Virus record (IMG/VR): IMGVR_UViG_3300044731_000312
Strand: one strand, 5' to 3'
Source of the DNA: an uncultured virus (IMG/VR IMGVR_UViG_3300044731_000312)
Lineage: Duplodnaviria > Heunggongvirae > Uroviricota > Caudoviricetes
Length of the DNA: 64,000 nt
The notes below the pieces were generated by a model that worked only from the letters and a program-made list of their open reading frames with translations, did no database searches and was not told where the DNA came from. This document shows, one piece after another, positions 1,234-33,720 of this stretch (positions are counted from its first letter, which is position 1; every line of letters begins with the position of its first letter). Both the position numbers and the translations under genes were made by a program.

Positions 1234-1234
1234 G

Positions 1235-6894: not shown

Positions 6895-8054
6895 TATATC
6901 TCGTAAACGTAAGTGTTTGATTCGTGTCCGTTTACAGCGTAGATGAGAGCGTCAACCATATCGTCGGGCTTCCCATCTTTGCCGTCGAACATAAGCAGTT
7001 GCTCTGTAAATTCCAAAGGTACGTTATTAACGTGCTTAATATAGCCGTGCTCATACTTGCCCGCAATGGGTAGAAAGCGGGTCAGCTTGTTGCGTCCACG
7101 TGGATTGACACCCTGAATGTTAAGCATCGTCTCGGCTCGTAGTTGTTGCACCATTACCTCTTGATACGCCACGTTCTCAACGCATACCCTGACCGCATTC
7201 CAGTTATAGGCAGTCTGCTTGATCTTGTCTTTGGTCTCGTTAAAGCTCCACTTGCCAAACACCACATCAGCGACGTAATAGGTCGTACCGCGCTTGCCCA
7301 CCACCACAATAGCGCGATCGTCTGCGTTGGATTTCATACCTACCGCCAAATCCACGCCGATTACGTACGTGATGTCATCTTCTGGTAGCAGAGCGTATTG
7401 CAACCATTCCTTACGCATGATGCGCCCCATTGGCCCGATAAATTCCCCTTCCAGCTCCTGCCGCGCAAACTCGCTGGTATACGTTTCCTCTAGCGTCCTG
7501 ACGTATTCAGGCGGTAGGTGTACATTATCCCTTGTCTTTGCCTGCGCTACAAAGTACTCTGGGTTGCCTTCTGTCCACTTACGGTAGAACCGCTCGAATA
7601 CCCAGTTGGTATCACCATTAGGCGATGTTGTAAGCCAGCATGCGGTAGGATCGCGGCGAATACGACCAAGCATAACGTCCCATGTAGCGCCGTCCATATA
7701 GTCAGCTTCATCTAGGTAGAACCAGTTCAGGTTAGGGCCACGTAGTGAGTCGGGCTTGTCTGCTGATCGCCAGAACACGGTAGTACCGTTACGCAGCACC
7801 GTCACGCCTTCGCTCTTGTTATGGCTCTCCACGGCCTGCCCAAACTTCTCGAAGAATGTCAGCAGCGTAGCATCCCGCAGCATGGGATAGGTAGGAGCTA
7901 TGACCGTGCCAAATGTCCCTGACGGCTGCCGTAGTATCTCAAGGCATCCTGCCAGCGTCTTGCCGCTACCGATACCACCCACGAAAAGCCGATGCCGTGC
8001 TCTACTGTTCCAAAAGGCCGTCTGTGCCGGCAATGGTGTTGTTACTTGTATCAT
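6894..8054 (-). CDS. terL: Terminase large subunit
   Basis: Walker A GGIGSGKT, LRG, Walker B YLDEA, GVDLA and DDMVDA nuclease motifs. Confidence 0.92.
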   Translation of the reverse strand: MIQVTTPLPAQTAFWNSRARHRLFVGGIGSGKTLAGCLEILRQPSGTFGTVIAPTYPMLRDATLLTFFEKFGQAVESHNKSEGVTVLRNGTTVFWRSADKPDSLRGPNLNWFYLDEADYMDGATWDVMLGRIRRDPTACWLTTSPNGDTNWVFERFYRKWTEGNPEYFVAQAKTRDNVHLPPEYVRTLEETYTSEFARQELEGEFIGPMGRIMRKEWLQYALLPEDDITYVIGVDLAVGMKSNADDRAIVVVGKRGTTYYVADVVFGKWSFNETKDKIKQTAYNWNAVRVCVENVAYQEVMVQQLRAETMLNIQGVNPRGRNKLTRFLPIAGKYEHGYIKHVNNVPLEFTEQLLMFDGKDGKPDDMVDALIYAVNGHESNTYVYEI

Positions 8055-8439
8055 CTGCTTCTAGTGGTATGGTATTCGGTTTAGGGCCTATTACGATGTT
8101 AAACTCTTGCCGCTCATTTGTTTGATGCATCTTTTGGGACATTCCTAGTCGATGCTCTGCAAGGCGCAGCAATACCGCACCGTTGCGTTTCCTGTTACCG
8201 TTCTGATCTGGTACGCCTATTACGCCTTCTTCCCATAGGGCAGCGTAAAGCTCAATATCGCCGTTTGCCTTTGCCTGCGATATAAGCTCTGCGTAGCGCC
8301 TACGTATCGTTTCACCAGATACTAGGGGCTTGCCGTCTGCATCCTTGCCTAGTGCTCTTGCAATAGCTTCAAAGCCAGCCCCTTTCGTCGCAGCTTCCCA
8401 TATCTTCTCTTCGTCGAGTTCTAACTTTTTACGGCCCAT
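8002..8439 (-). CDS. terS: Terminase small subunit (putative)
   Basis: HTH-like N-terminus, immediately upstream of terL. Confidence 0.7.
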   Translation of the reverse strand: MGRKKLELDEEKIWEAATKGAGFEAIARALGKDADGKPLVSGETIRRRYAELISQAKANGDIELYAALWEEGVIGVPDQNGNRKRNGAVLLRLAEHRLGMSQKMHQTNERQEFNIVIGPKPNTIPLEADDTSNNTIAGTDGLLEQ

Positions 8440-8479
8440 TATGTGGTCTGCATAACTAGTTTGTAAAATTCCACATTAC

Positions 8480-9049
8480 TCACTCTATCTCTTCCACTTG
8501 CACCGTAAAGTTAATATCTAGCAGCGTTTCCATACGTTCCACGTATTCACGGAAGTTAGCATCTGTTTCGATTTGGCTGCGCATGTTACGCAGCGCGTGG
8601 ATAACTGACGAGTGGTGCTTGTTAAATAGCCGCGCTATCAAGGAGTTAGATAGTCGGTACTTCGTAAATAGGAAGTACATGAGCAGATACCGGCATTCTA
8701 CAACCCAATGGAATCGGGATTGCGCTACAAGCTGCTCCCATGTGCAGTTGTAGAGCTTGCAGAATTGGTCGATAAGGTTTAGGATAGCTGGATTTTGCGT
8801 GTTTGGTCTCATTGCTAGTTTTTGTTTGATGATTTTGAGTGCTCTTCTGGTGTCGGTTATGTGTGAAGGGATCATGTGCCTATTGATTGCGATCAGCAAA
8901 TAATCCTGCATAGCGCGCGCGCTTACTTCTGGGAACAGATCGGGCTGGTTAGCAGCCCATGATACGAACCGTGACCGGTGCACATCAAAGTATTTGAGGA
9001 TGGTGTCGGACATTGCGAGCACCTCATTTAGCTTTCTATACCGCCTCAT
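8480..9049 (-). CDS. Protein with DnaA C-terminal (domain IV)-like HTH
   Basis: R.LLMY...LS...IARLFNKHHSSVIHALR resembles the DnaA domain IV IG..F.RDHTTV.HA signature. Confidence 0.75.
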   Translation of the reverse strand: MRRYRKLNEVLAMSDTILKYFDVHRSRFVSWAANQPDLFPEVSARAMQDYLLIAINRHMIPSHITDTRRALKIIKQKLAMRPNTQNPAILNLIDQFCKLYNCTWEQLVAQSRFHWVVECRYLLMYFLFTKYRLSNSLIARLFNKHHSSVIHALRNMRSQIETDANFREYVERMETLLDINFTVQVEEIE

Positions 9050-9132
9050 ATGTACCCTCCGTGTTGTTTTTGAGCTGTTAAGTAATGCTTAATAGTTGTT
9101 TGCAAGCCGTTTCCAGCCCAGTAGGCGCGTTT

Positions 9133-9939
9133 TTATTCGTTGTTTGATACTTTGGACAGGTACAAAGCTTTTATGCGCTCTATTTCAATTTCAGATGGTA
9201 GCTCCTTCTGGTACAATTCGACCACCTGCTTTGGCAATCCTGCGGGCTTTGTGCGGATCGCAATCTGCGGATCAGATTCTTTGCCAAACTTGCCCTTATT
9301 CCTGTTCCAATTCCTCGCCGTTGCCTTCCAATCCTTCATCGCATTCTTACCCACCTTCCATCCGTTAGCCGTGTAATGGTCGTAGAATTTGTGCGCCTCA
9401 TCGGCTGTGCTGCCTAGCTCAATGAAGTAGTCAAGGATTTCTTGACAACTTGGTCGCGTGAATGCGCGAGAGCGCATACTCACACTATCTTTATCTTCTT
9501 CTTCTATTCTTTCTTTCTTACCTTCTTTATATTCTTTACTTCTTATGATAGTGTTAGGCGTGTGTTGATCGTGTGTTAACCGTGTGTTAGGCGTGTGTTG
9601 ATCGTTGTTTTCACGTCCTTGTAAGTCTTCATAATTCAATATCTTAAGCCGTGTTGCCGCTGTGTTGCTTTTGACGCTTATCATGCCGTCATTTTCTGCG
9701 TACTTGAGAAAGGTTTTCACGATTTGCACCGTAGTTCCTGCCCCTTCTGCTAGTGATCGGTAGCTAGTTAACATCTCCCCGCGCTCTATTGTGACAAACT
9801 GACCATTGACCAACGCCTTGCTTGGTTTCCAGTTTGCAGCAATCAAAATATAGACCCAAATCTTTAGGTATTCTGGCCTTTGCTTAAATACCCAGTTCTC
9901 TAATATCTTACGATGTAGCTTAATCCACGAGTTTTCCAT
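9133..9939 (-). CDS. Phage replication initiator/replisome organiser (likely start MENSWIK at 9939)
   Basis: WIKLHRK N-terminus, internal iterons, C-terminal FYDHY..NGWKVGKN.MKDWKA. Confidence 0.8.
   Translation of the reverse strand: MENSWIKLHRKILENWVFKQRPEYLKIWVYILIAANWKPSKALVNGQFVTIERGEMLTSYRSLAEGAGTTVQIVKTFLKYAENDGMISVKSNTAATRLKILNYEDLQGRENNDQHTPNTRLTHDQHTPNTIIRSKEYKEGKKERIEEEDKDSVSMRSRAFTRPSCQEILDYFIELGSTADEAHKFYDHYTANGWKVGKNAMKDWKATARNWNRNKGKFGKESDPQIAIRTKPAGLPKQVVELYQKELPSEIEIERIKALYLSKVSNNE
9490..9603. repeat. Putative origin: five 11-bp iterons GTGTGTT(AGGC/GATC/AACC) plus adjacent pyrimidine/AT-rich tract
   Basis: Repeat units at 9549 (degenerate), 9560, 9571, 9582 and 9593 inside the initiator gene, as in lambda O/ori. 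Confidence 0.75.
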
Positions 9940-9953
9940 ACCATAAATAGGAA

Positions 9954-10035
9954 ACCCAGATGCTAGCTGATTTTCCTCGGTCATGAATGAACCGCCCGCA
10001 CCGTCTCCGGTGAAGGAATCTTCTAGCATCTGGGT
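9954..10035 (-). ncRNA. Structured leader (three-way junction) upstream of the initiator
   Basis: Perfect 13-bp arms ACCCAGATGCTAG/CTAGCATCTGGGT enclosing CACCG-GAGA-CGGTG and a second hairpin. Confidence 0.6.
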
Positions 10036-10131
10036 CGTATTGTCTATGTTGTTGTTCATGTTTAGGAATTAGCAATCTATGGCACTTACGCCATAATTGG
10101 ATGATATTTCTCTGCGCGCGTTATCAACGTG

Positions 10132-10719
10132 TCACAACTTCCGCAGCCATACTTGCCAGTTCTTTGCTAGCAGCTCGTATTCGCCGTCGTGTACTTCTAG
10201 GAACGTGTCAATCCCCTGCTTTGGATTATGTGCCGTCCCCTTGCCCCCATCCCATTGATAGTCATCAAAGGCAAGGATGCCGCCTTGCTTAAGATACTTC
10301 CAGCCCTTTGCGCCGTCTTTCCATACCTGATCTGCGGTATGGTCGCCATCGATGTAGATAAAGTCGAACTGATTGCGATCTAGCATGTTGGCATAGCTAT
10401 CGAAGAACCTATCCGACGTCATACGGAAGTATCGGCACTTCATGTATGCACGCAGCCCGATGCGCGATAGGTACGTGTCAAAAACATCTACCCAGTCAAA
10501 CAGCTTGTGCTCTGCTTCGTCGCTGCCCTGCCATGTGTCCACGTCGTACAGCATCACTTTGTTACCTGTTAGCATATACCGTAGCAGCCAATCGCTTGCG
10601 TGACCTACAAATGCGCCGATCTGCAATGCTTGGTAGTTATCGCGGCCTGCTTCTGGCAGCAGAAACTCTGTAAAATTTGCTCGTGCTACCGAGTCAAACC
10701 AGTTCGGGTATTCAGTCAT
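10132..10719 (-). CDS. Class I SAM-dependent methyltransferase (Methyltransf_24-like)
   Basis: LQIGAF.G, VDTWQG, FDFIYIDGDH, GG.LAFDDY. Confidence 0.85.
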   Translation of the reverse strand: MTEYPNWFDSVARANFTEFLLPEAGRDNYQALQIGAFVGHASDWLLRYMLTGNKVMLYDVDTWQGSDEAEHKLFDWVDVFDTYLSRIGLRAYMKCRYFRMTSDRFFDSYANMLDRNQFDFIYIDGDHTADQVWKDGAKGWKYLKQGGILAFDDYQWDGGKGTAHNPKQGIDTFLEVHDGEYELLAKNWQVWLRKL

Positions 10720-10810
10720 CGACCCTCCTATTATGTACGTATATCTCGAGTGCGATATACATCACTAGCAGCACCAAGCTGATCGCTATCCCCCTGTCGA
10801 TTGCGTCCAT
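10712..10810 (-). CDS. 32-aa membrane peptide (not in ORF track)
   Basis: MDAIDRGIAISLVLLVMYIALEIYVHNRRVDD fills the gap, overlapping both neighbours. Confidence 0.55.
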   Translation of the reverse strand: MDAIDRGIAISLVLLVMYIALEIYVHNRRVDD

Positions 10811-11688
10811 TATATATCCTCCCCAAATAAGCTGTTCAATTGTGATACATTGCGAAGGTTGCTGCTTGCCTGTTTGAAGTAGCTTTTTTTAAGCTCAAAC
10901 CCAACAAAGCGACGATTCATTTTTAACGCAACGTGGCCTTCTGATCCAATTCCCATGAAAGGAGATAGCACAAGATCGCCGGGATTGCTCCATAGCTCTA
11001 TGCCGCGCTCAATTACTTGCAACTGCAATGGGCAGATGTGCTTTTCGTCGTCGTGCTCACGGGCCGATGTATACTGCAACGTGTCCGATGGGTTTATGTC
11101 CATCCAAACAGGACTAGCGTAGCGCTGCCACTTGCCTACCGGGAAAGACTCTGGCGTCTTTGTTACCGGCTGCGGATTAGCGCCGGGCTTACGCATCGTA
11201 ATCAGGTAGTCTGGTATGCCCTGCCTAGACATGCAACTATCTTTCTTAAGCTGCTTATAAAGCAGACCGATCGCCTTTGTGCGCTGCATAGCTACAACTG
11301 GATCTTTCCAGATAACCACTTCCGAATGATAGACAAAACCTTCATCTTGGAAGATGCGGATTAGATCGCCGCGAAAGTCACGCAGCCCGATAACTCCGTT
11401 ATGCTGGATCGTGCTTGGTAGCAGCATACAATGAAAGCTAACATCACGGCCCGGTATCATGACTCGGTAGAGCTCTTTTACTAGGTATCTAAACTGCTCG
11501 TAAAACTCATCATCGTTTTGCGTGTTGCCCATGTCAAATGGACTGTCAGAATAAGTATACAAGCTCGCAAATGGAGGGCTGAAGATTGAATAGCCCACCG
11601 TCTCATCTAGGACGTAGTTGCTCAAACCAAGCACACAATCGCCGTTATAGATGTTGAAATTGTCCCCTTGCACATGTTCGTGCTGCAT
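10810..11688 (-). CDS. DNA methyltransferase, N4-C/N6-A beta class
   Basis: FSPPF (motif IV) precedes VLSPFMGIGS (motif I). Confidence 0.85.
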   Translation of the reverse strand: MQHEHVQGDNFNIYNGDCVLGLSNYVLDETVGYSIFSPPFASLYTYSDSPFDMGNTQNDDEFYEQFRYLVKELYRVMIPGRDVSFHCMLLPSTIQHNGVIGLRDFRGDLIRIFQDEGFVYHSEVVIWKDPVVAMQRTKAIGLLYKQLKKDSCMSRQGIPDYLITMRKPGANPQPVTKTPESFPVGKWQRYASPVWMDINPSDTLQYTSAREHDDEKHICPLQLQVIERGIELWSNPGDLVLSPFMGIGSEGHVALKMNRRFVGFELKKSYFKQASSNLRNVSQLNSLFGEDI

Positions 11689-11689
11689 G

Positions 11690-12958
11690 TCAAACCTCTA
11701 CTGATTTAATGTGATCCGCATTCACTTGTTTGCGGTTAAAGTTTACTGAAATGGCGTCATCGCCGTGGTATCTGATCGTGTATACGTTGACTTGATTGCG
11801 CTGCCCGAATCGGTAGCATCTGCGAATAGCTTGGTAGCGTTGTTCGTATGAGTGCGACAACGATGAAAAAACCATGTTGCTGCATTGTTGCCAGTTCATA
11901 CCGAAGCCCGCAATAGATGGCTTGGTAATAAGCACTCGTATCTTATCAGCTGCAAAGTCCATCATTGCAGTTTCTTTATGCTCTGGCTTATCTGATCCAC
12001 GTATCTCAACGGCTTCTGGTATCAACTTGCGTATGCTATCAGCTTCGTAGTTGTTCTCAACCCACACAAGCCATTGATTATCGTTACCGTTTACTATTTC
12101 TGCCACTTTGTTCGCTATGTCTTCATCGTATTTACGCTTTTGATGGCGCTGCTCTGATAATGAGATAGCAACTTGCTCAAATAGAGTTTCATCTGGTCGC
12201 TGCGTGTCGATTTGCACTTGCACTTCGTTGAGCTGCGGGAGCTGGAATCCCTCAATGCTATCACCAAGATCGCTCGGATTGTTGATGTTGATGCTCCATT
12301 CGTTTAGCCATCGCTTGAAGTCTTTAACAGCATGCTTTTTTAGCCGCCATTTGGACGTATCGCCGCCGTCGTGAACGAAGTAGTTAGCAAGCATTTCCGT
12401 ATGCGTGCAAATGCTTAAGAACTCTGCTTGCGTTCCAAACTCTACAAAGTCATTCGGGGCTGGTGTTGCAGTAGCTGATAGCCGGTATGGTATCGATTTT
12501 GCAAAGCTAGTAATCTCATTACGTAGTTTGCCGGCGTAATTCTTTAATATGCTGCTCTCATCAAGTACGATGCCAGCAAACTTGCCCGCGTGGTACTTAT
12601 CGATGTGCTCATAGTTTGTGATTGTGATCCGCTCGTAGCTACCATCTCGCGAATGATATACATCTATGCCAAACTTTGCACCTTCGCGCACGGTCTGTGC
12701 TGCTACTGCAAGCGGTGCAAGTATTAGTACCGGCTTTCCTGTGTGCTTTGCTATTTGATCTGCCCATACTAGCTGCATAGGTGTTTTGCCTAGGCCGCAT
12801 TCTGCAAAGATCGCAAAGCGTCCGCGCTTAAGTGCTTTTGATACAATTGTTTTTTGATAGGCAAACAAGAAAGACGGGAGATCGTTTACGTCAAATCCTG
12901 CATCGTCTATCGTCTTCTTTTTGCTTTGTATGAAAGCAAGATACCCCTGTGAGTCCAT
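11690..12958 (-). CDS. SF2 (SNF2-like) helicase
   Basis: GLGKT, LDESS, SATATP, GFGMNWQ, QAIRRCYRFGQ. Confidence 0.88.
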   Translation of the reverse strand: MDSQGYLAFIQSKKKTIDDAGFDVNDLPSFLFAYQKTIVSKALKRGRFAIFAECGLGKTPMQLVWADQIAKHTGKPVLILAPLAVAAQTVREGAKFGIDVYHSRDGSYERITITNYEHIDKYHAGKFAGIVLDESSILKNYAGKLRNEITSFAKSIPYRLSATATPAPNDFVEFGTQAEFLSICTHTEMLANYFVHDGGDTSKWRLKKHAVKDFKRWLNEWSININNPSDLGDSIEGFQLPQLNEVQVQIDTQRPDETLFEQVAISLSEQRHQKRKYDEDIANKVAEIVNGNDNQWLVWVENNYEADSIRKLIPEAVEIRGSDKPEHKETAMMDFAADKIRVLITKPSIAGFGMNWQQCSNMVFSSLSHSYEQRYQAIRRCYRFGQRNQVNVYTIRYHGDDAISVNFNRKQVNADHIKSVEV

Positions 12959-12963
12959 TTTGA

Positions 12964-13269
12964 CTAGTCCTCCTTCAATACGTTAAGTCGTGGTAAATCC
13001 GCTCCGATTATGTTGCACGCATCATCTATCGACCGTGCAACGCCGTACTGGCCCCTCCAATGCGCTGCGAACTCGTACTGATCTTCTGTTAGCTTGCCTT
13101 TGGCCTGCTTCACTTCGATCATGTAATTGCGTCCGCGCCATCCTACCACAAGATCGGGGAAGCCCTGACCGACTGCGCTCATAACAGCGACTGACGCCCC
13201 AATCTTGCGTAGATATGTGACTATCTCTTTCTGGTTTATGTCCACCTTTGCTGCCCTCTTCATACTCAA
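12964..13269 (-). CDS. VRR-NUC/PD-(D/E)XK nuclease (resolvase-like)
   Basis: G.PDL, IEVK, LT.DQ. Confidence 0.8.
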   Translation of the reverse strand: MSMKRAAKVDINQKEIVTYLRKIGASVAVMSAVGQGFPDLVVGWRGRNYMIEVKQAKGKLTEDQYEFAAHWRGQYGVARSIDDACNIIGADLPRLNVLKED

Positions 13270-13613
13270 AAGGGAAGATCAGTAGGTTCAGCGATAACAG
13301 TTGCCTTGCTTGCCGGTGCGCCTTCGCCTAGCTTGTCGATCTTCCAGCAATCGAGCGATGTAAACCACCCCATACCGCCTTCGCGCTTGTTGTAACCGCG
13401 TCCGCGCAAGTTTACTCGGGCTGTTACGGTGTCACCCACCTTAAAGCGGTCTAGCTCCTTGCACTTGTCTTGCGTAAACTGGCACTCCAGTTCCTGCGGG
13501 TATTCCGATTGCGTCTTGACTACGAAAGATCGCTTCTGGAATGTGTCTTTTACCTGCTGCGTCTGCCCAATGTGGATCAGCTCGCCCGTGATGTTGATTG
13601 CGTCGCTACTCAT
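13266..13613 (-). CDS. DUF3127-like single-stranded DNA-binding protein
   Basis: F.KR.FVV, YPQ, NLRGR, F.SL..WKI, acidic DLPF tail. Confidence 0.8.
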   Translation of the reverse strand: MSSDAINITGELIHIGQTQQVKDTFQKRSFVVKTQSEYPQELECQFTQDKCKELDRFKVGDTVTARVNLRGRGYNKREGGMGWFTSLDCWKIDKLGEGAPASKATVIAEPTDLPF

Positions 13614-13810
13614 CGTGTGCCCTTCTTGCGCATCTTCTGCGCTATTTGTGAAAGTATATCTAGCGCGGCTTTGTATTCCGCTGCATCTCTGCTCATGTTT
13701 GCTTCGTATTCGTAGATACCGGCACGTTCATGCCATTCTACAAGCTGATCGTCATCGAACCTGCTTATCAGGTGGATAACGAAGTCTGGGTCTGTTTGTT
13801 CTTGGTACAT
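13610..13810 (-). CDS. Small phage protein (ERAGI.EYE...SR..AE motif)
   Basis: Recurrent phage motif; stop overlaps the SSB start. Confidence 0.65.
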   Translation of the reverse strand: MYQEQTDPDFVIHLISRFDDDQLVEWHERAGIYEYEANMSRDAAEYKAALDILSQIAQKMRKKGTR

Positions 13811-13827
13811 GTTATGCCCTATATTCG
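13795..13827 (+). promoter_or_regulatory. Antisense-strand Bacteroidota-type promoter
   Basis: TTTG(13795-98)-N21-TATATTCG(13820-27) versus consensus TTTG-N19-21-TAnnTTTG. Confidence 0.55.
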
Positions 13828-13830
13828 TTT

Positions 13831-13907
13831 ACCCCTTGTAAGTGAGTGCGTGACTCCTTGCTCCCTCCGTGGGCCGTCAGACGAAAATCTGGCGGCTCTT
13901 TTATTTT
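13831..13907 (+). ncRNA. Candidate multi-target anti-RBS small RNA
   Basis: Lies between a + strand promoter and a + strand terminator; contains CCCCTTGTAA, TGACTCCTTG and CCCTCCGTG, complementary to RBS regions of several minus-strand genes. Confidence 0.6.
13871..13907 (+). terminator. Intrinsic terminator on the + strand
   Basis: GGGCCGTCAGA-CGAAAA-TCTGGCGGCTC-TTTTATTTT; two G-U pairs work only on +. Confidence 0.8.
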
Positions 13908-14269
13908 ACCCATTCGCCCAATGTGTTTTCATAGCCGAAGACTGTGGTAGACAGAGGGTAACGTGCAAGCACCGCTGATACGTCTTTGCCTACCGCCCCG
14001 CGCACCTTTGTGTTGTGTGCATCTTTGAGCTTTGCTTGGTCTACTATCTCTTCTACTATCTTGACTATCTCACGTTCTGCGGGCATGTTTGATAGTCGCT
14101 CAATTATGAATGCAATATACTCCTTTGCTGCCGCTATTGCATCCTGTTCATTGATAGCATCGTTTACTATAAACTGCTTACGGTATCTACCGCCGCGTTG
14201 CGCCTGTACGGATGCTCGGATAGCTACTACCTTGCCGCTGATACTCACTCGCTCTATACGCTGCTTCAT
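13901..14269 (-). CDS. Hypothetical, possibly AP2-like DNA-binding (start MKQRIE)
   Basis: ATGA overlap with upstream gene; weak resemblance to 45862..46365. Confidence 0.55.
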   Translation of the reverse strand: MKQRIERVSISGKVVAIRASVQAQRGGRYRKQFIVNDAINEQDAIAAAKEYIAFIIERLSNMPAEREIVKIVEEIVDQAKLKDAHNTKVRGAVGKDVSAVLARYPLSTTVFGYENTLGEWVK

Positions 14270-14406
14270 ACGATCCCCACTAGCCAAAGGAAGAAGTAGA
14301 GCATACAGGCAAAAGCAATGATGCAAGTTAGAGCCACAAAGAACAGGATCAGTACCATAGCATCGGCGGCGAAGCGTGCTAGGTCGATGTCGCTATGCTT
14401 GCTCAT
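14266..14406 (-). CDS. Small membrane protein (start MSKHS)
   Basis: Long hydrophobic stretch; AAAGGGGG upstream. Confidence 0.55.
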   Translation of the reverse strand: MSKHSDIDLARFAADAMVLILFFVALTCIIAFACMLYFFLWLVGIV

Positions 14407-14596
14407 GCTTGCCCCCTTTGTGCGGCTTGTAGTTAGCGCAGTAGAAGGTATCAGGATCATCCAGTTCTATCTCTAGCACGTCGCAGAATGCGTATTGTAC
14501 AGAGATGGTATAGAATCCTTCGTAGCTCAACTGATCGCGCTCGTATTCTTTTAATCGGCTGCATGTTCTGCATGTGCCGTGCTTGTTATCGTGCAT
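14393..14596 (-). CDS. Small Cys-rich protein
   Basis: CxxC...C...C; AAGGAG RBS. Confidence 0.6.
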   Translation of the reverse strand: MHDNKHGTCRTCSRLKEYERDQLSYEGFYTISVQYAFCDVLEIELDDPDTFYCANYKPHKGGKHEQA

Positions 14597-14714
14597 TGTT
14601 TACTCCTTGTGTTAAAAGTAGGGGCTTTGGCTTCCCAACCTCCGCCCCTGTCCCAAACCTATACCACGTCGTGGTACTTGCACAACCGACATCGCAGGGG
14701 CATTCCCTGCTCTG
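14597..14714 (-). ncRNA. Conserved intergenic structured RNA/attenuator
   Basis: Shares hairpin GCAGGG.ATGCCCCTGC, TGTCGGT, GTTTGG.ACA and a terminal hairpin with 45732-45861. Confidence 0.65.
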
Positions 14715-15134
14715 TTAGTTGTAATTCAGACCGCTCTTTGCGGCCTTTGCTTTCATGCGCTCATGGTAAGCGATAAACTTTTCGAGGAACTCGTGTGCTG
14801 ATAGCTTGTCGTCAAAGGATTTCGTAATCATCTTTGTGTTCTCGGTCAAACAGACTCTCCATTTTGGATGTCTTGATACTACCGATAGCCAGTTGCGATA
14901 ATCGCCGTATGTTTTCCTCATACGTTCTATGCCATCGAATCCGCCGCACTTTGCATAGAATTGCTCTAATGTGATTGCTCTGAACATGTATTGACTGTCA
15001 GATAGCACGCTTGTACGTCTTTGGCGTACCGGCTGCTGGTATGCTCTGCCTACCGTCTTTTTTACCGTCTTTTTTACCGTCTTTTCTACCGACTCAATAC
15101 CGAGCCAGCGACGTAAGAATGATCTGATACCCAT
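14715..15134 (-). CDS. Hypothetical early protein with KTV repeats
   Basis: ORF; 12-bp tandem repeat at ~15051-15090; weak similarity to 47011..47508. Confidence 0.6.
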   Translation of the reverse strand: MGIRSFLRRWLGIESVEKTVKKTVKKTVGRAYQQPVRQRRTSVLSDSQYMFRAITLEQFYAKCGGFDGIERMRKTYGDYRNWLSVVSRHPKWRVCLTENTKMITKSFDDKLSAHEFLEKFIAYHERMKAKAAKSGLNYN

Positions 15135-15349
15135 TACTGCTCTCCTTCCGTTGGCTTATAGGTTAGTTTTTCCAGCATTACCAAAGCTGGGTTGTTTTCT
15201 TCACAGTCTTCGTAAGCATCATTCAGCAATCGCATGATCTGGTTTGCAACTTGCATCGTCGGTAGGCAGTCCGCTACGCAGATGTCAGCATCAAGATCGA
15301 CAACGGAGTAGAATCCGCTGGGCTGCTTCCATGTTCCTAGCTTTCTCAT
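15134..15349 (-). CDS. Hypothetical protein
   Basis: Coupled ORF with AAGGAG RBS. Confidence 0.6.
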   Translation of the reverse strand: MRKLGTWKQPSGFYSVVDLDADICVADCLPTMQVANQIMRLLNDAYEDCEENNPALVMLEKLTYKPTEGEQ

Positions 15350-15588
15350 CGCTTGACTCCTTTTATATCGACTATCGCAATATTCAGGTTTGCAAATGTT
15401 GCCCTCAATTCTTTTTGCATTGCTTCAGATTGCGTTGCTATTATTTCTTCACATTGCACAACGTAATACAATGCTTCAAGTGCTTGATCAGATGCAATAA
15501 GTAGTTTTTGTAATTGTTCGTACTCTACATATTTGCCTTCTGAATCAACAGTAGATATCGCTACTGCGCTCATTGAGTATCTTCTCAT
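15346..15588 (-). CDS. Hypothetical protein (start MRRYS)
   Basis: ATGA overlap; GGAGG RBS. Confidence 0.55.
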   Translation of the reverse strand: MRRYSMSAVAISTVDSEGKYVEYEQLQKLLIASDQALEALYYVVQCEEIIATQSEAMQKELRATFANLNIAIVDIKGVKR

Positions 15589-16331
15589 CGCTGCACCTCC
15601 GTATATGCGCCCTTGCTCCAAACTAAATCAAGCTCTTTTGCACGTCGTGCCACGTATTCGCGGATCGGTGCTTTGATGCCTTCGTCTACGCTCTTGATTT
15701 GCATCACAATCGCAGTTAGCTCTTCTGGCCCCGTAGCGGCATCAATAGCCGATAACCATTCCGTGATAGCTTCGTCCTGTTCTGACGTCGTAGCGGGCTT
15801 TATAGGCGGCAATTCGATACGTTCAGCGCCTTGAACTTGCACAACTTCTTCTTCATCAAGCATACCGAGACCGCATGCGCTCAAAATAGCGCGTCGCTTT
15901 GCCTGTGTTGCTGCTTTCTTCATGGCATTGCTTGCCGCATCGCCGCGCATACCGCCAATCGTAACAGCTCCTATGTCCTCGGAGTAGCTGCCCGTTGGTG
16001 TCTCGCATCGTGCCGTTACTACATACTGATCGCCGATGACTTCGCGAGCTACGATAGCCACACGAAGGCCGCGTATAGATGTTAGCTGCGCCGTGCATGT
16101 CTTGTTTGCGTACAACGTGAGCTTGCCTGATAGCTTGATTAGATCAAACGGCTTCTGGTATGGGTCTAATCCCACGCGCTCACATACCAGCTTGTAATAT
16201 TGGATGCGCTGTTCCTGCGACATTGCGGACAGATCGCCGTTTACTACCAGCGTCTCAAACAACGCTGCCGCCTGCGACTCGTTTATTGAAGCTGCGACCG
16301 CCGTGTTAGTCGCTGTTATTGCTTGGCTCAT
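15585..16331 (-). CDS. Single-strand annealing recombinase (RecT/Bet-like)
   Basis: C...GLDP...; NA.KKA.TQAKRRA.L; next to the Gp157-like gene. Confidence 0.7.
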   Translation of the reverse strand: MSQAITATNTAVAASINESQAAALFETLVVNGDLSAMSQEQRIQYYKLVCERVGLDPYQKPFDLIKLSGKLTLYANKTCTAQLTSIRGLRVAIVAREVIGDQYVVTARCETPTGSYSEDIGAVTIGGMRGDAASNAMKKAATQAKRRAILSACGLGMLDEEEVVQVQGAERIELPPIKPATTSEQDEAITEWLSAIDAATGPEELTAIVMQIKSVDEGIKAPIREYVARRAKELDLVWSKGAYTEVQR

Positions 16332-16852
16332 TTTACCTCCAACCTTGTAGTGTTGATTAACCTTGCCCCATCTACCGGCACGCCGTTTTTAAGCGCATCG
16401 GCAATTGCTTTCTTGTCTATCGTAAATGATACCTTTTCTGCCTTGTACTCGCTAGGCACTACCACTTCTTCCAATATCTCTACCTTTGGTGGGTTCTTGC
16501 GTAGCTTTAGCGTGTATAGATCGGTCACAATCTCCTTTAACTCTACCATCTCCATGTGACGCTTTACTGCGTTCTCAAGCCGCTCTGCCCTTGTATTACG
16601 TTCAGTTAGCAATGATTGCAAGCGTTGTATCTCCAGCTTGATTGCTTCCGCTGACATCTTGAGATTAGCCGCGATGTCCATTGCCTGCACAATATACTCA
16701 CGGAAGTTTTCGCCCGCTTCTTCGATTGCATCTTCAAACATTGCCACAATTTCGGGGTCGTCCGTGTGCATCATTTGATTCATTAGATCAGCTAGCTTGT
16801 ACGCCGCTCCGCTGCTACTCGTGAATGTCTGCTTGGTCTCTCGGAAAATCAT
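16328..16852 (-). CDS. Siphovirus Gp157-like protein
   Basis: LRKNPPKVEI, IDKKAI..ALKNG..V.GA.L. Confidence 0.8.
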   Translation of the reverse strand: MIFRETKQTFTSSSGAAYKLADLMNQMMHTDDPEIVAMFEDAIEEAGENFREYIVQAMDIAANLKMSAEAIKLEIQRLQSLLTERNTRAERLENAVKRHMEMVELKEIVTDLYTLKLRKNPPKVEILEEVVVPSEYKAEKVSFTIDKKAIADALKNGVPVDGARLINTTRLEVK

Positions 16853-17085
16853 TGCGTGCCCCCTTGTAATGCTGTGTTAGTAGATGCGTGAGTTGCTTCT
16901 GTGCGCTCCTGTTGTTTGCTTTGGCGTCCTGTAATAAGAGACGATGGATATTCGCCGGCAAACGGATCATCTTGTGCGCTTGCAATTTCGTCATATTCCT
17001 CCCATGTGTAAGTTCGTGTAACTTTATTTGTGTCCATTTCTACTAGGTGCAAATATCGCTTTGTCATGCTCATCTCGACCCCCAC
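16849..17085 (-). CDS. Hypothetical protein
   Basis: Coupled ORF in the early operon; exact start uncertain. Confidence 0.5.
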   Translation of the reverse strand: MGVEMSMTKRYLHLVEMDTNKVTRTYTWEEYDEIASAQDDPFAGEYPSSLITGRQSKQQERTEATHASTNTALQGGTQ

Positions 17086-17291
17086 AACGTAACGGTCTGT
17101 TCTGGCTTGATAATCGGATCAGGTGTTGCAGCTACTGCCAATGCTGACAGCGTGATAGCAAGCAGAGCGATAAGCCCAACGCCAACGATATACAGCTTCT
17201 GCCGATACGACGCGCTCAAGTAAGGAGCCACGCGCCAGTACGTCTTGCCGTCTGCGCTGCGTGTTGTCGTGAATTCAATGCCGATGTTCAT
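17070..17291 (-). CDS. Conserved early single-TM membrane protein
   Basis: Homolog at 49149..49364 (PDP.IKP.QTVTLWG.R). Confidence 0.75.
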   Translation of the reverse strand: MNIGIEFTTTRSADGKTYWRVAPYLSASYRQKLYIVGVGLIALLAITLSALAVAATPDPIIKPEQTVTLWGSR

Positions 17292-17348
17292 GATATTACC
17301 CTTGTAAAAAGTGAATGATTGCAGTGTAGGATGCTGCGCCCCGTGGTT

Positions 17349-17549
17349 TTAGTATTGACTTTGTAGATAATCGTCGTGTGAAGCTGCTTCAAACTTTTGC
17401 GCGTCTGTTGTTTTGTAGCATTGCAAGTTGTAAATAGCATCTTTTATCCTGTCCCAAGCGTCCCAATTCTCATCTTGAGCCGCTGCGTCCAATTGCTCTT
17501 GCAGTTGCTCAATGATTGCAGCTACTTTTTGTTGATTGTACTTTTTCAT
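17349..17549 (-). CDS. First early gene (start MKKYN)
   Basis: Directly downstream of the early promoter; ACAAGGG RBS. Confidence 0.6.
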   Translation of the reverse strand: MKKYNQQKVAAIIEQLQEQLDAAAQDENWDAWDRIKDAIYNLQCYKTTDAQKFEAASHDDYLQSQY

Positions 17550-17586
17550 TGCCGTGCCCTTGTTAAGTGTGAACTTGATTACGTCA

Positions 17587-17660
17587 CAAATATACGTAAA
17601 CATTTTGTCTACACAATAGAAAAAAGAAAAAAAGTCAAAAAAAATTTAACTTTTTCTCGG
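17587..17660 (-). promoter_or_regulatory. Main early promoter of A with upstream T-tracts
   Basis: TTG-N19-TATATTTG (Bacteroidota -33/-7 consensus). Confidence 0.7.
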
Positions 17661-17685
17661 ATAGGTAAAAATATCGGGCTTTTCT

Positions 17686-18219
17686 TTACGCTTTGGTGTC
17701 GTATACCATCGCATCAGGCACGTTCAGCTCGCTAGGCAGACGGTACGCAATAATGCGCCCCTTGTCATATCCTGCTATGCTTACCTTGTTTGACTGATTA
17801 CCGCCTAGCACATAGACGTATTTAGCCGTCTCGCGTACATAAAAGCCAACGTGACCGCCTCCGGTACGTGTCATTACTACAATGCACCCCGAATGAGGCT
17901 TGCATGACTGCCCATATTTAGCCCATGACCGCGCTGCCGCTGATCCTGTGACGCTATACCCGGCATTGCCTACGCACCAGTTGACAAAAGAAGAACACCA
18001 CGGCGTTTCGTCATCCTTCGCCTTCAACGTCGTGCGCTGATGATACTCAACGATGCGCTTGTTATGCTTTGGCCCTGCTATTTCGGCCTGCCCTTTTTCC
18101 TTCTGCGCAATCTGCATCCAGCTATATTCGGTCGGCTGCTCTGCCTTTGGAGTGTTTAGCTGTTTTAAAGTATTGCCATACCATGTTTTCAAGCCCAACA
18201 ACAAGTTCCTCATCATCAA
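17686..18219 (-). CDS. TIGR02594-family (NlpC/P60-CHAP-like) endolysin
   Basis: DETPWCSSFVNW, AARSW, GHVGF, VLGGNQS. Confidence 0.85.
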   Translation of the reverse strand: MMMRNLLLGLKTWYGNTLKQLNTPKAEQPTEYSWMQIAQKEKGQAEIAGPKHNKRIVEYHQRTTLKAKDDETPWCSSFVNWCVGNAGYSVTGSAAARSWAKYGQSCKPHSGCIVVMTRTGGGHVGFYVRETAKYVYVLGGNQSNKVSIAGYDKGRIIAYRLPSELNVPDAMVYDTKA

Positions 18220-18457
18220 ATCGCCTTCCTATCGTGTAAAGTGCCGCATGTATGAATTCATGGATAAACGTCTGCGTCATCGTGTCCGCTGTACAGGGCT
18301 TGCCTTCGACTGTGCGAGCAATCCTGATCGTGTAGGTGTCTATGTTGCATTCGCCGTACAAGTGCTGTACTTCGCCCGCAGGTGTCACTACAACGATTGA
18401 CTTTTGCAGCTTGACACGCCACGTATTGCCGCCGAGCTTGAATGATGTTGGTGTCAT
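18122..18457 (-). CDS. Small HExxH metallopeptidase-like protein
   Basis: TFIHEFIHA; homolog at 62466..62756. Confidence 0.75.
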   Translation of the reverse strand: MTPTSFKLGGNTWRVKLQKSIVVVTPAGEVQHLYGECNIDTYTIRIARTVEGKPCTADTMTQTFIHEFIHAALYTIGRRFDDEELVVGLENMVWQYFKTAKHSKGRAADRI

Positions 18458-19425
18458 CGCACCACCCCTTGCAGGATTACTTTGTTGTGAACGGTGAAAT
18501 TACCCTGCGCTTCTAACTCCACCAAAGCTACGCCGTGATTCCAGTTGTTGCGAGGCGCGTAGCGTGGGTTTAGATCGCATAAGCACCCAACAGACCACCC
18601 CGCTATGAAAGTACCGTCCAGCGGCCTTCTAAATAGGTCTGTGGAAGTCTTATGTACGTGCCCTACCATCACATTATCTACGGCTTTCATGCGGTAGTTG
18701 CGCGCTGGATTAACACCACCACCTCCAAACCATTCGTGACCGTGATCTATCCATAGCTTGCCCGCTTTAACCTTTGCCCGCTCGTCTACCCACTCTATCC
18801 CCTGCTCGTGCAATCCGAGCATCTCTTCTAGAATGATCGTGCCTTCTAACTCTTTTGCCTTCTGTGCTAGGTAACGCTTGAGCCGTTCCTCGTGATTGCC
18901 CTCCCGGTAGACGATCCGCACCTTATCGCCAAAAAATTGCCGCAGATGCTTAACCATAGTACGCGCGGCGTCCAATTCCCACTTCCATGACCTGTTATTT
19001 TCTACCTTTTCATGCGAAGAAAGGTTATAGCAGTCCATCATATCGCCATTTAAAAGCAGCGTATCTACTCCACAGTTGCGCAGCCATTCGATAGCGGTTA
19101 AATATGCGCCGCTATACGTTCCGTCTGCTTCCCTGCGCAGATCGTGAAAGGGCCAATGAGCATCCGAGATTACGCCAATCTTGTTGCACGTAGACAAGTC
19201 CGTTATCTCATCTTCGCGCAGCTCTCCTGCAAGCGGAGCAACTGGCTCCGGTTCTTGACCGAATACAGCACCGGTTACGGCCTGCTCGGCATAGCTAGAT
19301 TCTGCCCTAGCAATACCAAGCTGGATGTTGGTGTTGTTGGTTTTCATCTTTTTGAGCCGCTCGGCTCGCATAGCTGCGACCGCTTCGTATTCTTCGTCAG
19401 TTAGCCGGACTGCTTTATTACCCAT
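18454..19425 (-). CDS. Calcineurin-like metallophosphoesterase
   Basis: SDAH, NGDMMD, GNHE, HGH, GHVH. Confidence 0.9.
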   Translation of the reverse strand: MGNKAVRLTDEEYEAVAAMRAERLKKMKTNNTNIQLGIARAESSYAEQAVTGAVFGQEPEPVAPLAGELREDEITDLSTCNKIGVISDAHWPFHDLRREADGTYSGAYLTAIEWLRNCGVDTLLLNGDMMDCYNLSSHEKVENNRSWKWELDAARTMVKHLRQFFGDKVRIVYREGNHEERLKRYLAQKAKELEGTIILEEMLGLHEQGIEWVDERAKVKAGKLWIDHGHEWFGGGGVNPARNYRMKAVDNVMVGHVHKTSTDLFRRPLDGTFIAGWSVGCLCDLNPRYAPRNNWNHGVALVELEAQGNFTVHNKVILQGVVR

Positions 19426-19565
19426 CAGTTAGCCCTTACATTGTGATCTTTCGCCCATTGCTCCAGATAGACGATAACGTGCAATAGCTGCGCCCGGCGT
19501 ACCGGTGGGATGTCATCGTATGCAATTACTTTGAGCTGTTCAATCAGTTCTTCAACGTCTATCAT
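19425..19565 (-). CDS. 46-aa protein (not in ORF track)
   Basis: MIDVEE...PVRRAQLL; positional homolog at 50744..50875 (PVRRAELL). Confidence 0.65.
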   Translation of the reverse strand: MIDVEELIEQLKVIAYDDIPPVRRAQLLHVIVYLEQWAKDHNVRAN

Positions 19566-20101
19566 AGTGCTGTACCCGCTTCTGTAATTACTTTTAAGCG
19601 CATAGCAGCCGATGCAGCATACGTTAGACTTGAACCGTTATTAGATATTACAACGCCATACAAAAACCCAGCAGTAGAGCCAACGCCCGTACGATAGTAA
19701 CGAGCAGGATTTACGCGAGCTACCCATACGGTATCGCTTACGCGCACATAGTCCGCCTGCGCTACTGGTACGACCGCCACAAGATCAGTTACGCTGCCAT
19801 TAAAAACCGCTCCGAGCGTTGGCGTGCCCGGCGAACTGTTTGTATAGAGGTAAACATGCAGCGGAGCTTTCTTGATATTGGCGCTACTGCTTGCAGTCTC
19901 TTCTATCTCAAGCTGCCGCAAGATCATGTGCTGGTTTGTCGTGTTCGCCGTACCTTCAAACGTTATCACCGTATTCGATACGGGATAGTATTGCGACAGC
20001 GAGCTTGTAGATACGCTGGTTAGGTCGATCCATCCGAGATCACTAGAGTTGGTTGCGCTTAAAAGATTAGGCGCGACAGGTGTATTTGGTAAGCAGCTCA
20101 T
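19562..20101 (-). CDS. Tail-tip structural protein
   Basis: Homolog at 50872..51411. Confidence 0.7.
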   Translation of the reverse strand: MSCLPNTPVAPNLLSATNSSDLGWIDLTSVSTSSLSQYYPVSNTVITFEGTANTTNQHMILRQLEIEETASSSANIKKAPLHVYLYTNSSPGTPTLGAVFNGSVTDLVAVVPVAQADYVRVSDTVWVARVNPARYYRTGVGSTAGFLYGVVISNNGSSLTYAASAAMRLKVITEAGTAL

Positions 20102-33514: not shown

Positions 33515-33720
33515 TAGTTAAGCTGTGTTTCCGTGCCTGCATCGTTTTTGAAATACAGATTGCCGTCGGTCTTAACATACAACAAAGTCAGTCCAGATGC
33601 AGGCGTGCTCGGGCTGCTGCCCTGTTCTACGAGAACAATAGACGCACCGAATACCAAACTGTCAGAGCTACTAAACTCCGACAGATTGCCGCTGGTTGTT
33701 ATCGGTCGTAGGTTAGCCAT
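33514..33720 (-). CDS. 68-aa virion protein (near-identical to 518..724)
   Basis: Four substitutions versus 518..724. Confidence 0.8.
   Translation of the reverse strand: MANLRPITTSGNLSEFSSSDSLVFGASIVLVEQGSSPSTPASGLTLLYVKTDGNLYFKNDAGTETQLN

What the first reader, a model, noticed from the sequence alone, without database searches (positions are those of the whole stretch)
13795..13907. Candidate phage 'master' antisense sRNA built from anti-RBS modules for many phage genes
Seen: in a genome with all genes on minus, this gap has a + strand promoter match (TTTG-N21-TATATTCG) and a terminator that works only on + (G-U pairs plus U-tract). The ~40 nt between them, ACCCCTTGTAAGTGAGTGCGTGACTCCTTGCTCCCTCCGTG, repeats + strand sequence just upstream of several start codons, so a + transcript would be complementary to those mRNA initiation regions. 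Matches: CCCCTTGTAA at 16860-16869 (Gp157-like), CCCTTGTAA at 17299-17307, CCCTTGT(T)AAGTG at 17557-17569 (first early gene), TGACTCCTT at 15354-15362, ACTCCTTG at 14602-14609, CCCTCCGTG at 9055-9063 (DnaA-IV protein), CCTCCGT at 15596-15602. Inference: one trans-acting sRNA shutting down translation of early genes and the putative late regulator, which could stand in for a repressor in a phage lacking CI and integrase. Alternative: the minus strand acts as an ANGGA-repeat decoy for a CsrA-like protein.
Basis: partly seen in the sequence, partly recalled or inferred. Interest (0 to 1): 0.9.

Follow-up and report, generated by a model that had tools for sequence, protein, structure and literature searches.

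The report
Conserved antisense small RNA in phage
A group of uncultured lake phages keeps, opposite its genes and just before its DNA-replication genes, what looks like a tiny RNA gene that can cover ribosome-landing sites, but the idea that it is a master switch for many phage genes is only weakly supported.

Summary
The gap 13811-13900 of an all-minus siphophage holds a plus-strand hairpin plus U-run (13871-13908). A 40-nt C/U-rich stretch before it repeats sequence found just upstream of several start codons.

The element is under selection. Its 39-nt core is 92-100% identical in relatives whose neighbouring third codon positions are only 48-77% identical. It reads as a plus-strand RNA: stem changes keep G-U pairs on plus and give mismatches on minus, with fold z -4.1 versus -0.3. 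Four sequence-diverged versions of the same gap in related phages all keep an antisense terminator and a C/U-rich CCUCC stretch.

I read it as a ~77-nt antisense RNA over the leader of the orf66/SSB replication block, like lambda OOP or plasmid CopA.

The "master anti-RBS" reading is weak. The excess of start-site matches is strong in this phage, but it is absent in three complete relatives and in the diverged versions. There is no covariation with a target, and pairing energies barely beat controls that keep the same SD-complement cores.

No transcript was seen, and the promoter and host are unknown.

The parts
13795..13827 (+). Putative promoter of the antisense RNA: TTTG / TTGTTC (13795-13801) and TATATT(CG) (13820-13827). 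It lies inside the first codons and leader of orf66.
   Evidence: The sequence is. The ATATT core and the upstream TTG are kept in all 20 aligned sequences. The site is below the threshold of the sigma-70 scan. It is unverified.
13831..13907 (+). Predicted ~77-nt antisense small RNA. The 5' end is inferred from where the conserved block begins.
   Evidence: Covariance model R1 finds a single copy in the window (111.7 bits). There is no Rfam match.
13831..13837 (+).
   Evidence: Fold. It is invariant apart from the loss of one C in 3 of the 13 distinct variants aligned.
13838..13861 (+). Hairpin 1 (9 pairs).
   Evidence: The only stem change gives U-G on the plus strand. Two further changes lie in the loop.
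13862..13870 (+).
   Evidence: It is invariant in the 13 type-A variants. A CCUCC stretch is also present in the diverged types B, C and D.
13871..13908 (+). Intrinsic terminator: an 11-bp hairpin (13871-13898) plus a U-run (13899-13908). The U-run overlaps the stop codon of the 141-aa ORF.
   Evidence: On the plus strand 141 of 142 cells pair, against 117 of 142 on the minus strand.
13901..14326 (-). Upstream gene orf141 (function unknown; the likely true start is 14269).
   Evidence: All 20 of 20 viral contigs with a homologue carry the element.
13610..13810 (-). Downstream gene orf66, a small acidic protein. Its end overlaps the start of the SSB-like gene.
   Evidence: Of the 26 loci with a homologue, the 6 diverged B-D loci and the type-A loci that were aligned all have the gap with the antisense hairpin; one contig is cut inside the element.
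13266..13613 (-). DUF3127 / SSB-like gene, the first of the replication block (followed by VRR-NUC nuclease, SNF2-type helicase, methylases and a DnaD-like gene).
9050..9074 (-). Start region of the DnaA_C-HTH gene (8480-9049). It contains CACGGAGGG and is the best and most conserved candidate trans target.
   Evidence: Cofold ddG is -19.9. The 9-mer is kept at this gene's start in several relatives.
16853..16877 (-). Start region of the Gp157-like gene. It holds a 10-nt match, TTACAAGGGG.
   Evidence: (ddG -15.9).
14597..17574 (-). Further matched start regions inside this span: 14602-14609, 15354-15362, 15596-15602, 17299-17307 and 17557-17569.

Best explanation
The gap holds a gene for a small non-coding RNA of about 77 nt, transcribed from the plus strand against the flow of the phage's early operon.

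The RNA would have an unpaired 5' ACCCCUU, one hairpin, an unpaired UCCCUCCGU linker, and an intrinsic terminator whose U-run overlaps the stop codon of orf141.

Its one certain partner is the early mRNA itself. The RNA is perfectly complementary to the leader that precedes orf66, the DUF3127 SSB-like gene and the rest of the replication block. That leader carries SD-like GGAGG/AAGGAG/AAGGGG motifs, and in some relatives a short upstream ORF that ends inside orf66.

Pairing would hide those ribosome-entry sequences, or create a double-stranded cleavage site, and so damp expression of the replication block. This is how lambda OOP acts on cII, and how plasmid R1 CopA acts on the tap/repA leader.

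Because the RNA is the mirror image of RBS-type sequence, it can also pair imperfectly with other phage start sites. The best candidates are the DnaA_C-HTH gene and the Gp157-like gene. I take this as a possible side activity, not the conserved function.

Shown: conservation, strand-specific structure, the terminator, synteny across diverged versions, and complementarity.
Inferred: the promoter, the 5' end, the existence of the transcript, and any regulatory effect.
For: 1. Selection. The core 13832-13870 shows 0-3 changes in 39 nt against relatives whose orf141 third codon positions are 48-55% identical and whose orf66 third positions are 70-77% identical.

2. Strand.
- The plus-strand fold is -28.9 kcal/mol with z -4.13; the minus-strand fold has z -0.29.
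- The consensus fold is -29.2 (plus) against -11.9 (minus).
- On the plus strand 258 of 259 stem cells pair over 13 distinct variants. In the terminator, 141 of 142 cells pair on plus against 117 of 142 on minus.
- The transitions seen at stem positions give G-U on plus and a mismatch on minus. There is one compensatory A-U to U-A change and one U-U break.

3. The terminator is the top hit of the scan.

4. Every one of the 20 viral contigs with orf141 has the element.

5. Diverged syntenic gaps: types B, C and D, found through orf66 homologues.
- They are 90-101 nt long and differ in sequence.
- All 6 examined keep an antisense hairpin of 11-12 pairs plus a run of 5-8 U at the upstream gene's stop codon, and a CCUCC stretch. 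The stretch is unpaired in types C and D and partly paired in type B.
- The antisense strand folds better than the sense strand in 6 of 6. Antisense z-scores are -3.9, -2.3, -5.4 and -5.7 against sense -1.1, -1.2, -3.1 and -2.1.

6. The sense strand of types B and C, of D-L137 and of the type-A variants L044 and L015 has a 15-22-codon ORF behind GGAGG that ends 8-14 nt inside orf66. This fits a leader under translational control.
Against: - No transcript was seen. The only RNA run found holds one contig, inside the SSB gene, and nothing on the element.
- The promoter is only a weak consensus match, below the threshold, and it is not alike in the four types.
- Covariation is thin: one double change, and the shuffle control is not significant (70-82 of 500). 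The relatives are close kin.
- The G-U asymmetry rests on about five variable sites, roughly P 0.03 if they are independent.
- The upstream ORF is missing in the window type (ACG stands where others have ATG) and is frame-broken in L136 and L138. The CopA/tap analogy therefore does not hold for this phage as it stands.
- If the RNA starts at 13831, it stops 20 nt short of orf66's start codon.
Confidence: 0.5

Rival explanations
1. This is a trans-acting 'master' sRNA whose three modules were shaped to block the ribosome-binding sites of many early genes and of the DnaA_C-HTH gene. It would shut early translation down and stand in for a repressor.
For: - In this phage, 5 of 49 start regions share 8-mers or longer with the element, against a null of about 1.
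- The element is the unique genome-wide maximum for 9-mer sharing.
- All five matched genes lie in the early/replication region 8400-17700.
- Early start regions pair better than late ones: median ddG -8.4 against -4.2, P = 1.4e-4.
- Similarity to the first early genes' leaders extends beyond the SD.
- The CACGGAGGG match at the DnaA_C-HTH gene recurs in several relatives.
- The element is the top hub also in loci L033 and L043.
Against: - Three complete relatives with the same element show no excess: 1, 2 and 2 start regions, with 14030 of 33596, 4589 of 36735 and 6338 of 34373 windows doing as well.
- L042 has zero matches, and L029, L037, L041 and L045 are ordinary.
- At the orf67 RBS, of the 18 loci in which it was found, 14 pair T in the element with T in the target, two T with C, one C with C and one C with T. 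That is not covariation.
- Energies against controls that keep the cores give P = 0.033, 0.24, 0.11 and 0.027.
- Phage-1 and phage-2 start regions do not differ overall (P = 0.11).
- Module 2 is buried in hairpin 1.
- The type-B version has no RBS matches in its loci.
- The early-versus-late difference may only reflect stronger SDs in early genes.
Confidence: 0.15
2. The working part is the minus-strand mRNA leader. It would serve as SD-like standby sites, or as the RBS of a leader peptide that feeds ribosomes to orf66 and the SSB-like gene, or as a binding site for a translational repressor. On this reading the plus-strand terminator only stops stray antisense transcription.
For: - Upstream ORFs coupled to orf66 occur in types B, C, D-L137 and in A-L044/L015.
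- orf66's own SD is weak (-3.5 kcal/mol).
- The GGAGG stretch is kept in all four types.
Against: - The minus strand has no significant structure (z -0.29).
- Stem substitutions are tolerated only when the plus strand still pairs.
- The U-run is longer than coding needs, up to 8 in L138.
- A terminator implies a transcript to terminate.
- The window type has no start codon behind its SD-like motifs, yet it is the most strictly conserved type.
Confidence: 0.15
3. This is a general anti-SD RNA aimed at host messages or at ribosome traffic as a whole, acting as a mimic of the 16S rRNA tail, rather than at particular phage genes.
For: - Two unpaired C/U-rich stretches resemble the anti-SD.
- 33 of 48 phage start regions give a duplex of -14 kcal/mol or better, and controls that keep the cores do nearly as well, with a mean of 29. 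Pairing is therefore largely generic.
Against: - The host is unknown, so no host target could be examined.
- An RNA that is perfectly complementary to an abundant phage mRNA would be titrated by it first.
- Type B partly buries its CCUCC stretch.
Confidence: 0.1
4. One reading: the minus strand is a GGA-repeat decoy for a CsrA-like protein.
For: Three GGA motifs lie within 25 nt on the minus strand.
Against: - The GGA motifs are not presented in hairpin loops.
- The minus-strand fold is no better than shuffles: 74 of 200 shuffles fold as well.
- There is no terminator for a separate minus-strand RNA.
- Substitution patterns follow plus-strand pairing.
Confidence: 0.03

Closest known systems
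Lambda OOP RNA (77 nt, cis-antisense to cII). Read as passages and table rows of the review PMC12197685.
   Same: - Small size.
- Transcribed against the operon from its own promoter.
- Ends in an intrinsic terminator.
- Overlaps the 3' end of one gene and the gap before the replication genes.
- Expected to act by duplex formation on the phage's own mRNA.
   Different: - No sequence or Rfam relationship.
- The host and the phage's lifestyle are unknown.
- The predicted duplex covers an SD-rich leader rather than a coding 3' end.
- RNase III dependence is untested.
CopA antisense RNA of plasmid R1 acting on the tap leader peptide and repA.
   Same: An antisense RNA lies opposite the leader of replication genes. 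In types B and C, in D-L137 and in A-L044/L015, a short ORF behind a strong SD ends inside the next gene, which is the arrangement that couples translation.
   Different: - The window's own type has no canonical start codon for such a leader peptide.
- This is a phage, not a plasmid.
- No kissing-loop structure was examined.
c4 RNA of phages P1/P7 and sar RNA of P22: antisense RNAs that block a ribosome-binding site. Read as passages of PMC12197685.
   Same: Phage-encoded, about 70-77 nt, with short exposed stretches complementary to the region around a ribosome-binding site.
   Different: - c4 and sar each control one gene, ant, in temperate phages. No ant, CI or integrase gene was recognised here.
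- No Rfam family matches even at E <= 10.
C-rich sRNAs of Firmicutes such as RoxS/RsaE. Recalled, and named in the earlier scan note e1-5960991.
   Same: Unpaired C-rich stretches before a terminator that can pair with SD sequences of several mRNAs.
   Different: - Those are chromosomal and host-encoded.
- No Rfam match.
- Multi-target action is not shown here.
T4 RegA/RegB: protein-based shut-off of early-gene translation at RBS/GGAG. For PMC3014915 I saw only the search listing and the start of the abstract; the rest is recalled.
   Different: Those are proteins. The RNA-based version proposed here is not supported across relatives.

Membership tests
Rho-independent (intrinsic) terminator on the plus strand | A G+C-rich hairpin directly followed by a U-run on the transcribed strand. 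| tested here: met
   11 pairs, 7 of them G-C, with a 6-nt loop and then TTTTATTTTA. The pairs are kept in 141 of 142 cells on the plus strand. The same arrangement is found in the diverged types B-D.
Cis-antisense phage sRNA of the OOP kind | A discrete small transcript from its own promoter, opposite to the operon. | tested here: inconclusive
   There is only a weak promoter-like match. No transcript data exist: the single RNA run covers only the SSB gene.
Cis-antisense phage sRNA of the OOP kind | Overlaps the end of one gene and the gap before the next, with perfect complementarity to the mRNA. | tested here: met
   By coordinates, the U-run overlaps the stop codon 13901-13903 and the body covers 13831-13900 of the gap.
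Cis-antisense phage sRNA of the OOP kind | The duplex is cleaved by RNase III, or translation of the target is lowered. | not testable with these tools
   This needs an experiment.
P1/P7 c4 RNA (an Rfam family) | Match to the family's covariance model. | tested here: not met
   No Rfam 15 family matched 13600-14100 at E <= 10 or the whole window at gathering score.
CopA/tap-repA type leader control | A leader peptide ORF under the antisense RNA, translationally coupled to the downstream gene. | tested here: not met
   The window type has no ATG, GTG or TTG behind its SD-like motifs. Such an ORF is present in types B, C, D-L137 and A-L044/L015, and it is frame-broken in L136 and L138.
   The 5' ACCCCUU and the linker UCCCUCCGU are unpaired in the minimum-energy and centroid folds. 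Module 2 is paired.
   It is met in this phage. It is not met in G002, G005 or G006 nor in 5 of 9 loci. Energy P values are 0.03-0.24. There is no covariation.
CsrB/RsmZ-type protein sponge | Many GGA motifs shown in hairpin loops of an RNA with its own terminator on that strand. | tested here: not met
   There are three GGA motifs. The minus strand has z -0.29 and no terminator.

The most novel reading that the evidence does not exclude
Besides acting on its own leader, the antisense RNA is a phage-made general anti-SD RNA. Its exposed CCCUCC and ACCCCUU stretches would bind the start sites of SD-led early messages (Gp157-like, DnaA_C-HTH, helicase and the first early genes) and time the shut-off of early translation. 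This would be an RNA counterpart of T4 RegA/RegB. It would be especially interesting if the host is a Bacteroidota member, where SD-led translation is unusual. The only hints to such a host are that DUF3127 rings solely in B. thetaiotaomicron among 14 control genomes and that the promoter-like motifs resemble the type recalled for Bacteroidota.
Probability: 0.15. Interest if true: 0.75.

Novelty: new member of a known kind. Interest (0 to 1): 0.5.

Why it matters
Regulatory RNAs of phages are known from a handful of cultured model phages. The review PMC12197685 tabulates OOP, sar, c4 and a few others; I read passages and table rows of it.

Here comparative sequence alone gives a fairly strong case for an antisense RNA family in uncultured lake phages. 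The family is kept at one position, in front of the replication block, through four sequence-diverged versions, and it matches no Rfam family.

If confirmed, it would add a new phage RNA family. It would also show that antisense control of replication genes, as seen in lambda and in plasmids, is used far outside the model systems.

The bolder idea is one RNA silencing many early genes through their ribosome-binding sites. That would be a new way for a phage to time its programme, but my tests do not carry it beyond this one genome. Two full-text searches listed no paper whose title or abstract start describes such a multi-gene anti-RBS phage RNA.

Tried and rejected
- **Rfam.** The whole window at gathering score and 13600-14100 at E <= 10 gave no match.
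- **GenBank phages.** blastn of 12900-15200 gave no match.
- **Window's own genome.** It is not held. The nearest virus record, G001, is identical over 13500-14400.
- **Bacterial genomes.** The element pattern gave 0 hits and the portal protein gave 0 relatives. So there is no prophage copy and no host from this route.
- **Protein atlas with the large terminase.** Only viral clusters came back, with no host.
- **Viral-contig scan with a 15-mer of the element.** 43 stretches matched. 20 are the known clade and 23 are chance matches.
- **Metagenome scan with the terminator pattern.** 11 loci matched. 6 are type-A copies and 5 are unrelated. No new kind was found.
- **Covariance model R1.** There is no second copy in the window (phage 2 included) or in L024-L027; the best other hit has E 1.6. 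L024, the one examined of the four loci with a 42%-identical SSB, has no gap before that gene.
- **RNA evidence.** One lake metatranscriptome run (contigs only) was found. The one contig laid covers 13328-13473 in the SSB gene at 90-95% likeness. It says nothing about the element.
- **Covariation between module 2 and the orf67 RBS.** None was found.
- **Hub test in relatives.** The result was not reproduced.
- **TANNTTYG motif.** It is not enriched in the window: 71 found against 64 expected.
- **Type I toxin-antitoxin idea.** orf66 is an acidic, soluble-looking 66-aa protein, not a small hydrophobic peptide, so I dropped this.
- **N-terminal extension of orf66 into the gap.** By my reading of the sequence, an in-frame TAA excludes it.
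- **Earlier notes of this scan.** There are none on this genome or this sequence.

Full report
**What the window is.** The 64-kb window holds two related siphophage-like genomes one after the other, with all genes on the minus strand.
- Phage 1 runs from about 1 to 33000. Over the 901 bases compared (13500-14400) it is identical to a 32,372-bp viral record rated complete (G001).
- Read along the minus strand, the genes run tail, lysin, then an early block. The early block holds small ORFs, a Gp157-like gene, a weak Rad52-like match, more small ORFs, orf141, orf66, a DUF3127 SSB-like gene, a VRR-NUC nuclease, an SNF2-type helicase, two methylases, a DnaD-like gene and a DnaA_C-HTH protein. Terminase and head genes follow.
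- The finding lies in the 90-nt gap between orf141 (13901-14326) and orf66 (13610-13810).

- TTTG (13795-13798), 21 nt, then TATATTCG (13820-13827) are present.
- The hairpin 13871-13898 plus TTTTATTTTA is the best terminator-like site in 8000-20000 and lies on the plus strand.
- The claimed matches of the 40-nt stretch are at the stated coordinates, each just upstream of a minus-strand start codon.

**The element is under selection.**
- All 20 viral contigs that encode an orf141 homologue (75-99% identity) carry the element. A 15-mer scan of the viral collection found it nowhere else: 20 true copies among 43 hits.
- Against the most distant of these relatives, the 39-nt core has 0-3 changes. 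Over the same comparisons, third codon positions of orf141 are only 48-55% identical and those of orf66 are 70-77% identical.
- The 21 nt between the core and orf66's start are much less conserved (57-100%). The conserved block therefore begins at about 13831, which I take as the likely 5' end of the RNA. This is an inference.

**It reads as a plus-strand RNA.**
- The plus strand folds into an unpaired 5' ACCCCUU, a 9-pair hairpin, an unpaired UCCCUCCGU and the 11-pair terminator. The energy is -28.9 kcal/mol with z -4.13, and 0 of 200 shuffles fold as well.
- The minus strand is no better than shuffles (z -0.29).
- Over 13 distinct variants, 258 of 259 stem cells pair on the plus strand. In the terminator, 141 of 142 cells pair on plus against 117 of 142 on minus.
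- The transitions seen at stem positions leave G-U on plus and C-A or A-C on minus. There is one compensatory A-U to U-A change and one U-U break. Two of the three changes in the core outside stems fall in the loop of hairpin 1.
- The consensus fold is -29.2 on plus against -11.9 on minus.
- Caveats: the sequences are close kin, the shuffle control is not significant (70-82 of 500), and about five variable sites give roughly P 0.03.

**Wider relatives give the strongest argument.**
- A search with an alignment of orf66 homologues returned 26 loci. They include three further kinds of the same gap: type B (L010, L011, L133, L134), type C (L135) and type D (L136-L138).
- These gaps are 90-101 nt long and hardly alignable with the window's.
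- Each of the 6 examined still has, on the antisense strand, an 11-12-pair hairpin followed by 5-8 U that overlaps the stop codon of the orf141-like gene. The hairpins have G-U pairs that become mismatches on the sense strand. Types B and C differ by a double compensatory change.
- The antisense strand folds better than the sense strand in 6 of 6. Its z-scores are -3.9, -2.3, -5.4 and -5.7, against -1.1, -1.2, -3.1 and -2.1 for the sense strand.
- All carry a CCUCC stretch. It is unpaired in types C and D and partly paired in type B.
- An antisense terminator kept at one position through this much divergence implies an antisense transcript.

**What the RNA would do.** Its one certain partner is the mRNA leader it is copied against.
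- That leader carries SD-like GGAGG/AAGGAG/AAGGGG motifs.
- In types B and C, in D-L137 and in the type-A variants L044 and L015, a 15-22-codon ORF starts behind GGAGG and ends 8-14 nt inside orf66. That is a coupling arrangement.
- This recalls lambda OOP (passages of PMC12197685) and plasmid R1 CopA/tap-repA (recalled).
- The analogy is incomplete. The window type has ACG where the others have ATG, and L136 and L138 are frame-broken.

**The 'master anti-RBS' idea.** In favour, in this phage:
- 5 of 49 start regions share 8-mers or longer with the element, and 4 of 49 share 9-mers or longer.
- The nulls give 0.83 (three real RBS windows; 0 of 1500 reach 5) and 1.05 (cores kept, flanks shuffled; P about 0.01 and 0.0007).
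- Phage 2 start regions share 8-mers or longer in 1 of 44 cases.
- The element is the genome-wide maximum for 9-mer sharing.

Against:
- In three complete relatives with the same element the counts are 1, 2 and 2, which are ordinary ranks.
- Among nine 8-kb loci the element is top in three, tied in one, ordinary in four and zero in one.
- The one variable module base does not covary with the orf67 RBS.
- Duplex energies against core-preserving controls give P = 0.033, 0.24, 0.11 and 0.027.
- Phage-1 and phage-2 start regions do not differ overall (P = 0.11), although early regions pair better than late ones (P = 1.4e-4).
- Type B has no RBS-module matches in its loci.
- Start codons were chosen by my own SD-based rule, which is a further source of error.

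I conclude that the likeness to RBSs mostly follows from the leader itself being made of RBS-type sequence. Cross-pairing with the DnaA_C-HTH and Gp157-like start sites remains possible.

**Not settled.**
- The transcript: no usable RNA data.
- The promoter: weak, and different in each type.
- The host: the only hint is that DUF3127 rings solely in Bacteroides thetaiotaomicron among 14 control genomes. The many strong SD-like start sites of this phage sit oddly with what I recall of translation in that phylum.

**Earlier notes of this scan.** One search lists similar antisense, anti-SD-looking units in other uncultured phages. These are unchecked leads, not support.

**Verdict.** This is a real, conserved element, most likely a new phage antisense small RNA acting on the leader of the replication block. 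The master-regulator reading is not excluded, but it is not carried by the comparative tests.

Noticed in passing
window 1-1485 and 32997-34481; also 18414-19182 vs 62713-63481: The window is two related phage genomes in a row. The first 1.5 kb is 89% identical to 32997-34481, and other blocks are 70-74% identical. The replication modules differ between the two.
   Followed up: partly
window 14694-14710 (gap 14597-14714) and 45838-45854 (gap 45732-45861); L010, about 830 nt upstream of its gap: A 6-bp hairpin, GCAGGG-loop-CCCTGC, sits just after a stop codon and recurs in both phages of the window. In L010 it recurs as GTAGGG...CCCTAC, a compensatory change. Similar sequence follows it. It is probably a shared RNA or DNA signal at the start of the next transcription unit.
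   Followed up: partly
window 17550-17685, minus strand: The gap before the first early gene has a long T/A-rich tract, TTGACT, and TATATTTG (17587-17594). This is probably the early promoter. Its second element nearly equals the TATATTCG proposed for the antisense RNA.
   Followed up: no
window 42657-50650, phage 2 start regions: At least five phage-2 genes (starts at 44798, 45526, 48443, 50395 and 50633) have (A)CACGGAG just before the start codon; four of them read ACACGGAGA. This is a recurrent extended RBS style, also seen in phage 1 at 9049 and 15588.
   Followed up: no
L037, L042 and L043, about 2.1 kb downstream of the element: Relatives carry a run of GGGCACAG-like repeats, which may be iteron-like, beginning with CACGGAGGG. 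The window phage has other sequence there.
   Followed up: no
L133 1417-1506, L135, L137; L044 and L015 gaps: Short upstream ORFs of 15-22 codons lie in the orf141-orf66 gap, with a similar peptide tail (R-N-I/L-T-K...). They end inside orf66. They are present in some lineages and lost in the window type.
   Followed up: partly
window 13266-13613: The SSB-like protein is a DUF3127 family member. In the 14 control genomes this family is found only in Bacteroides thetaiotaomicron, which is a weak hint to a Bacteroidota host.
   Followed up: partly
L090, L095, L098: Three contigs, two of them labelled human gut, share the 22-nt terminator pattern in an unrelated context. This is a chance likeness between terminators.
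   Followed up: yes
window 13901-14326: The longest reading of orf141 starts at TTG 14326, but the SD-based choice is ATG 14269, which gives about 122 aa. The first 19 codons look like non-coding sequence.
   Followed up: no
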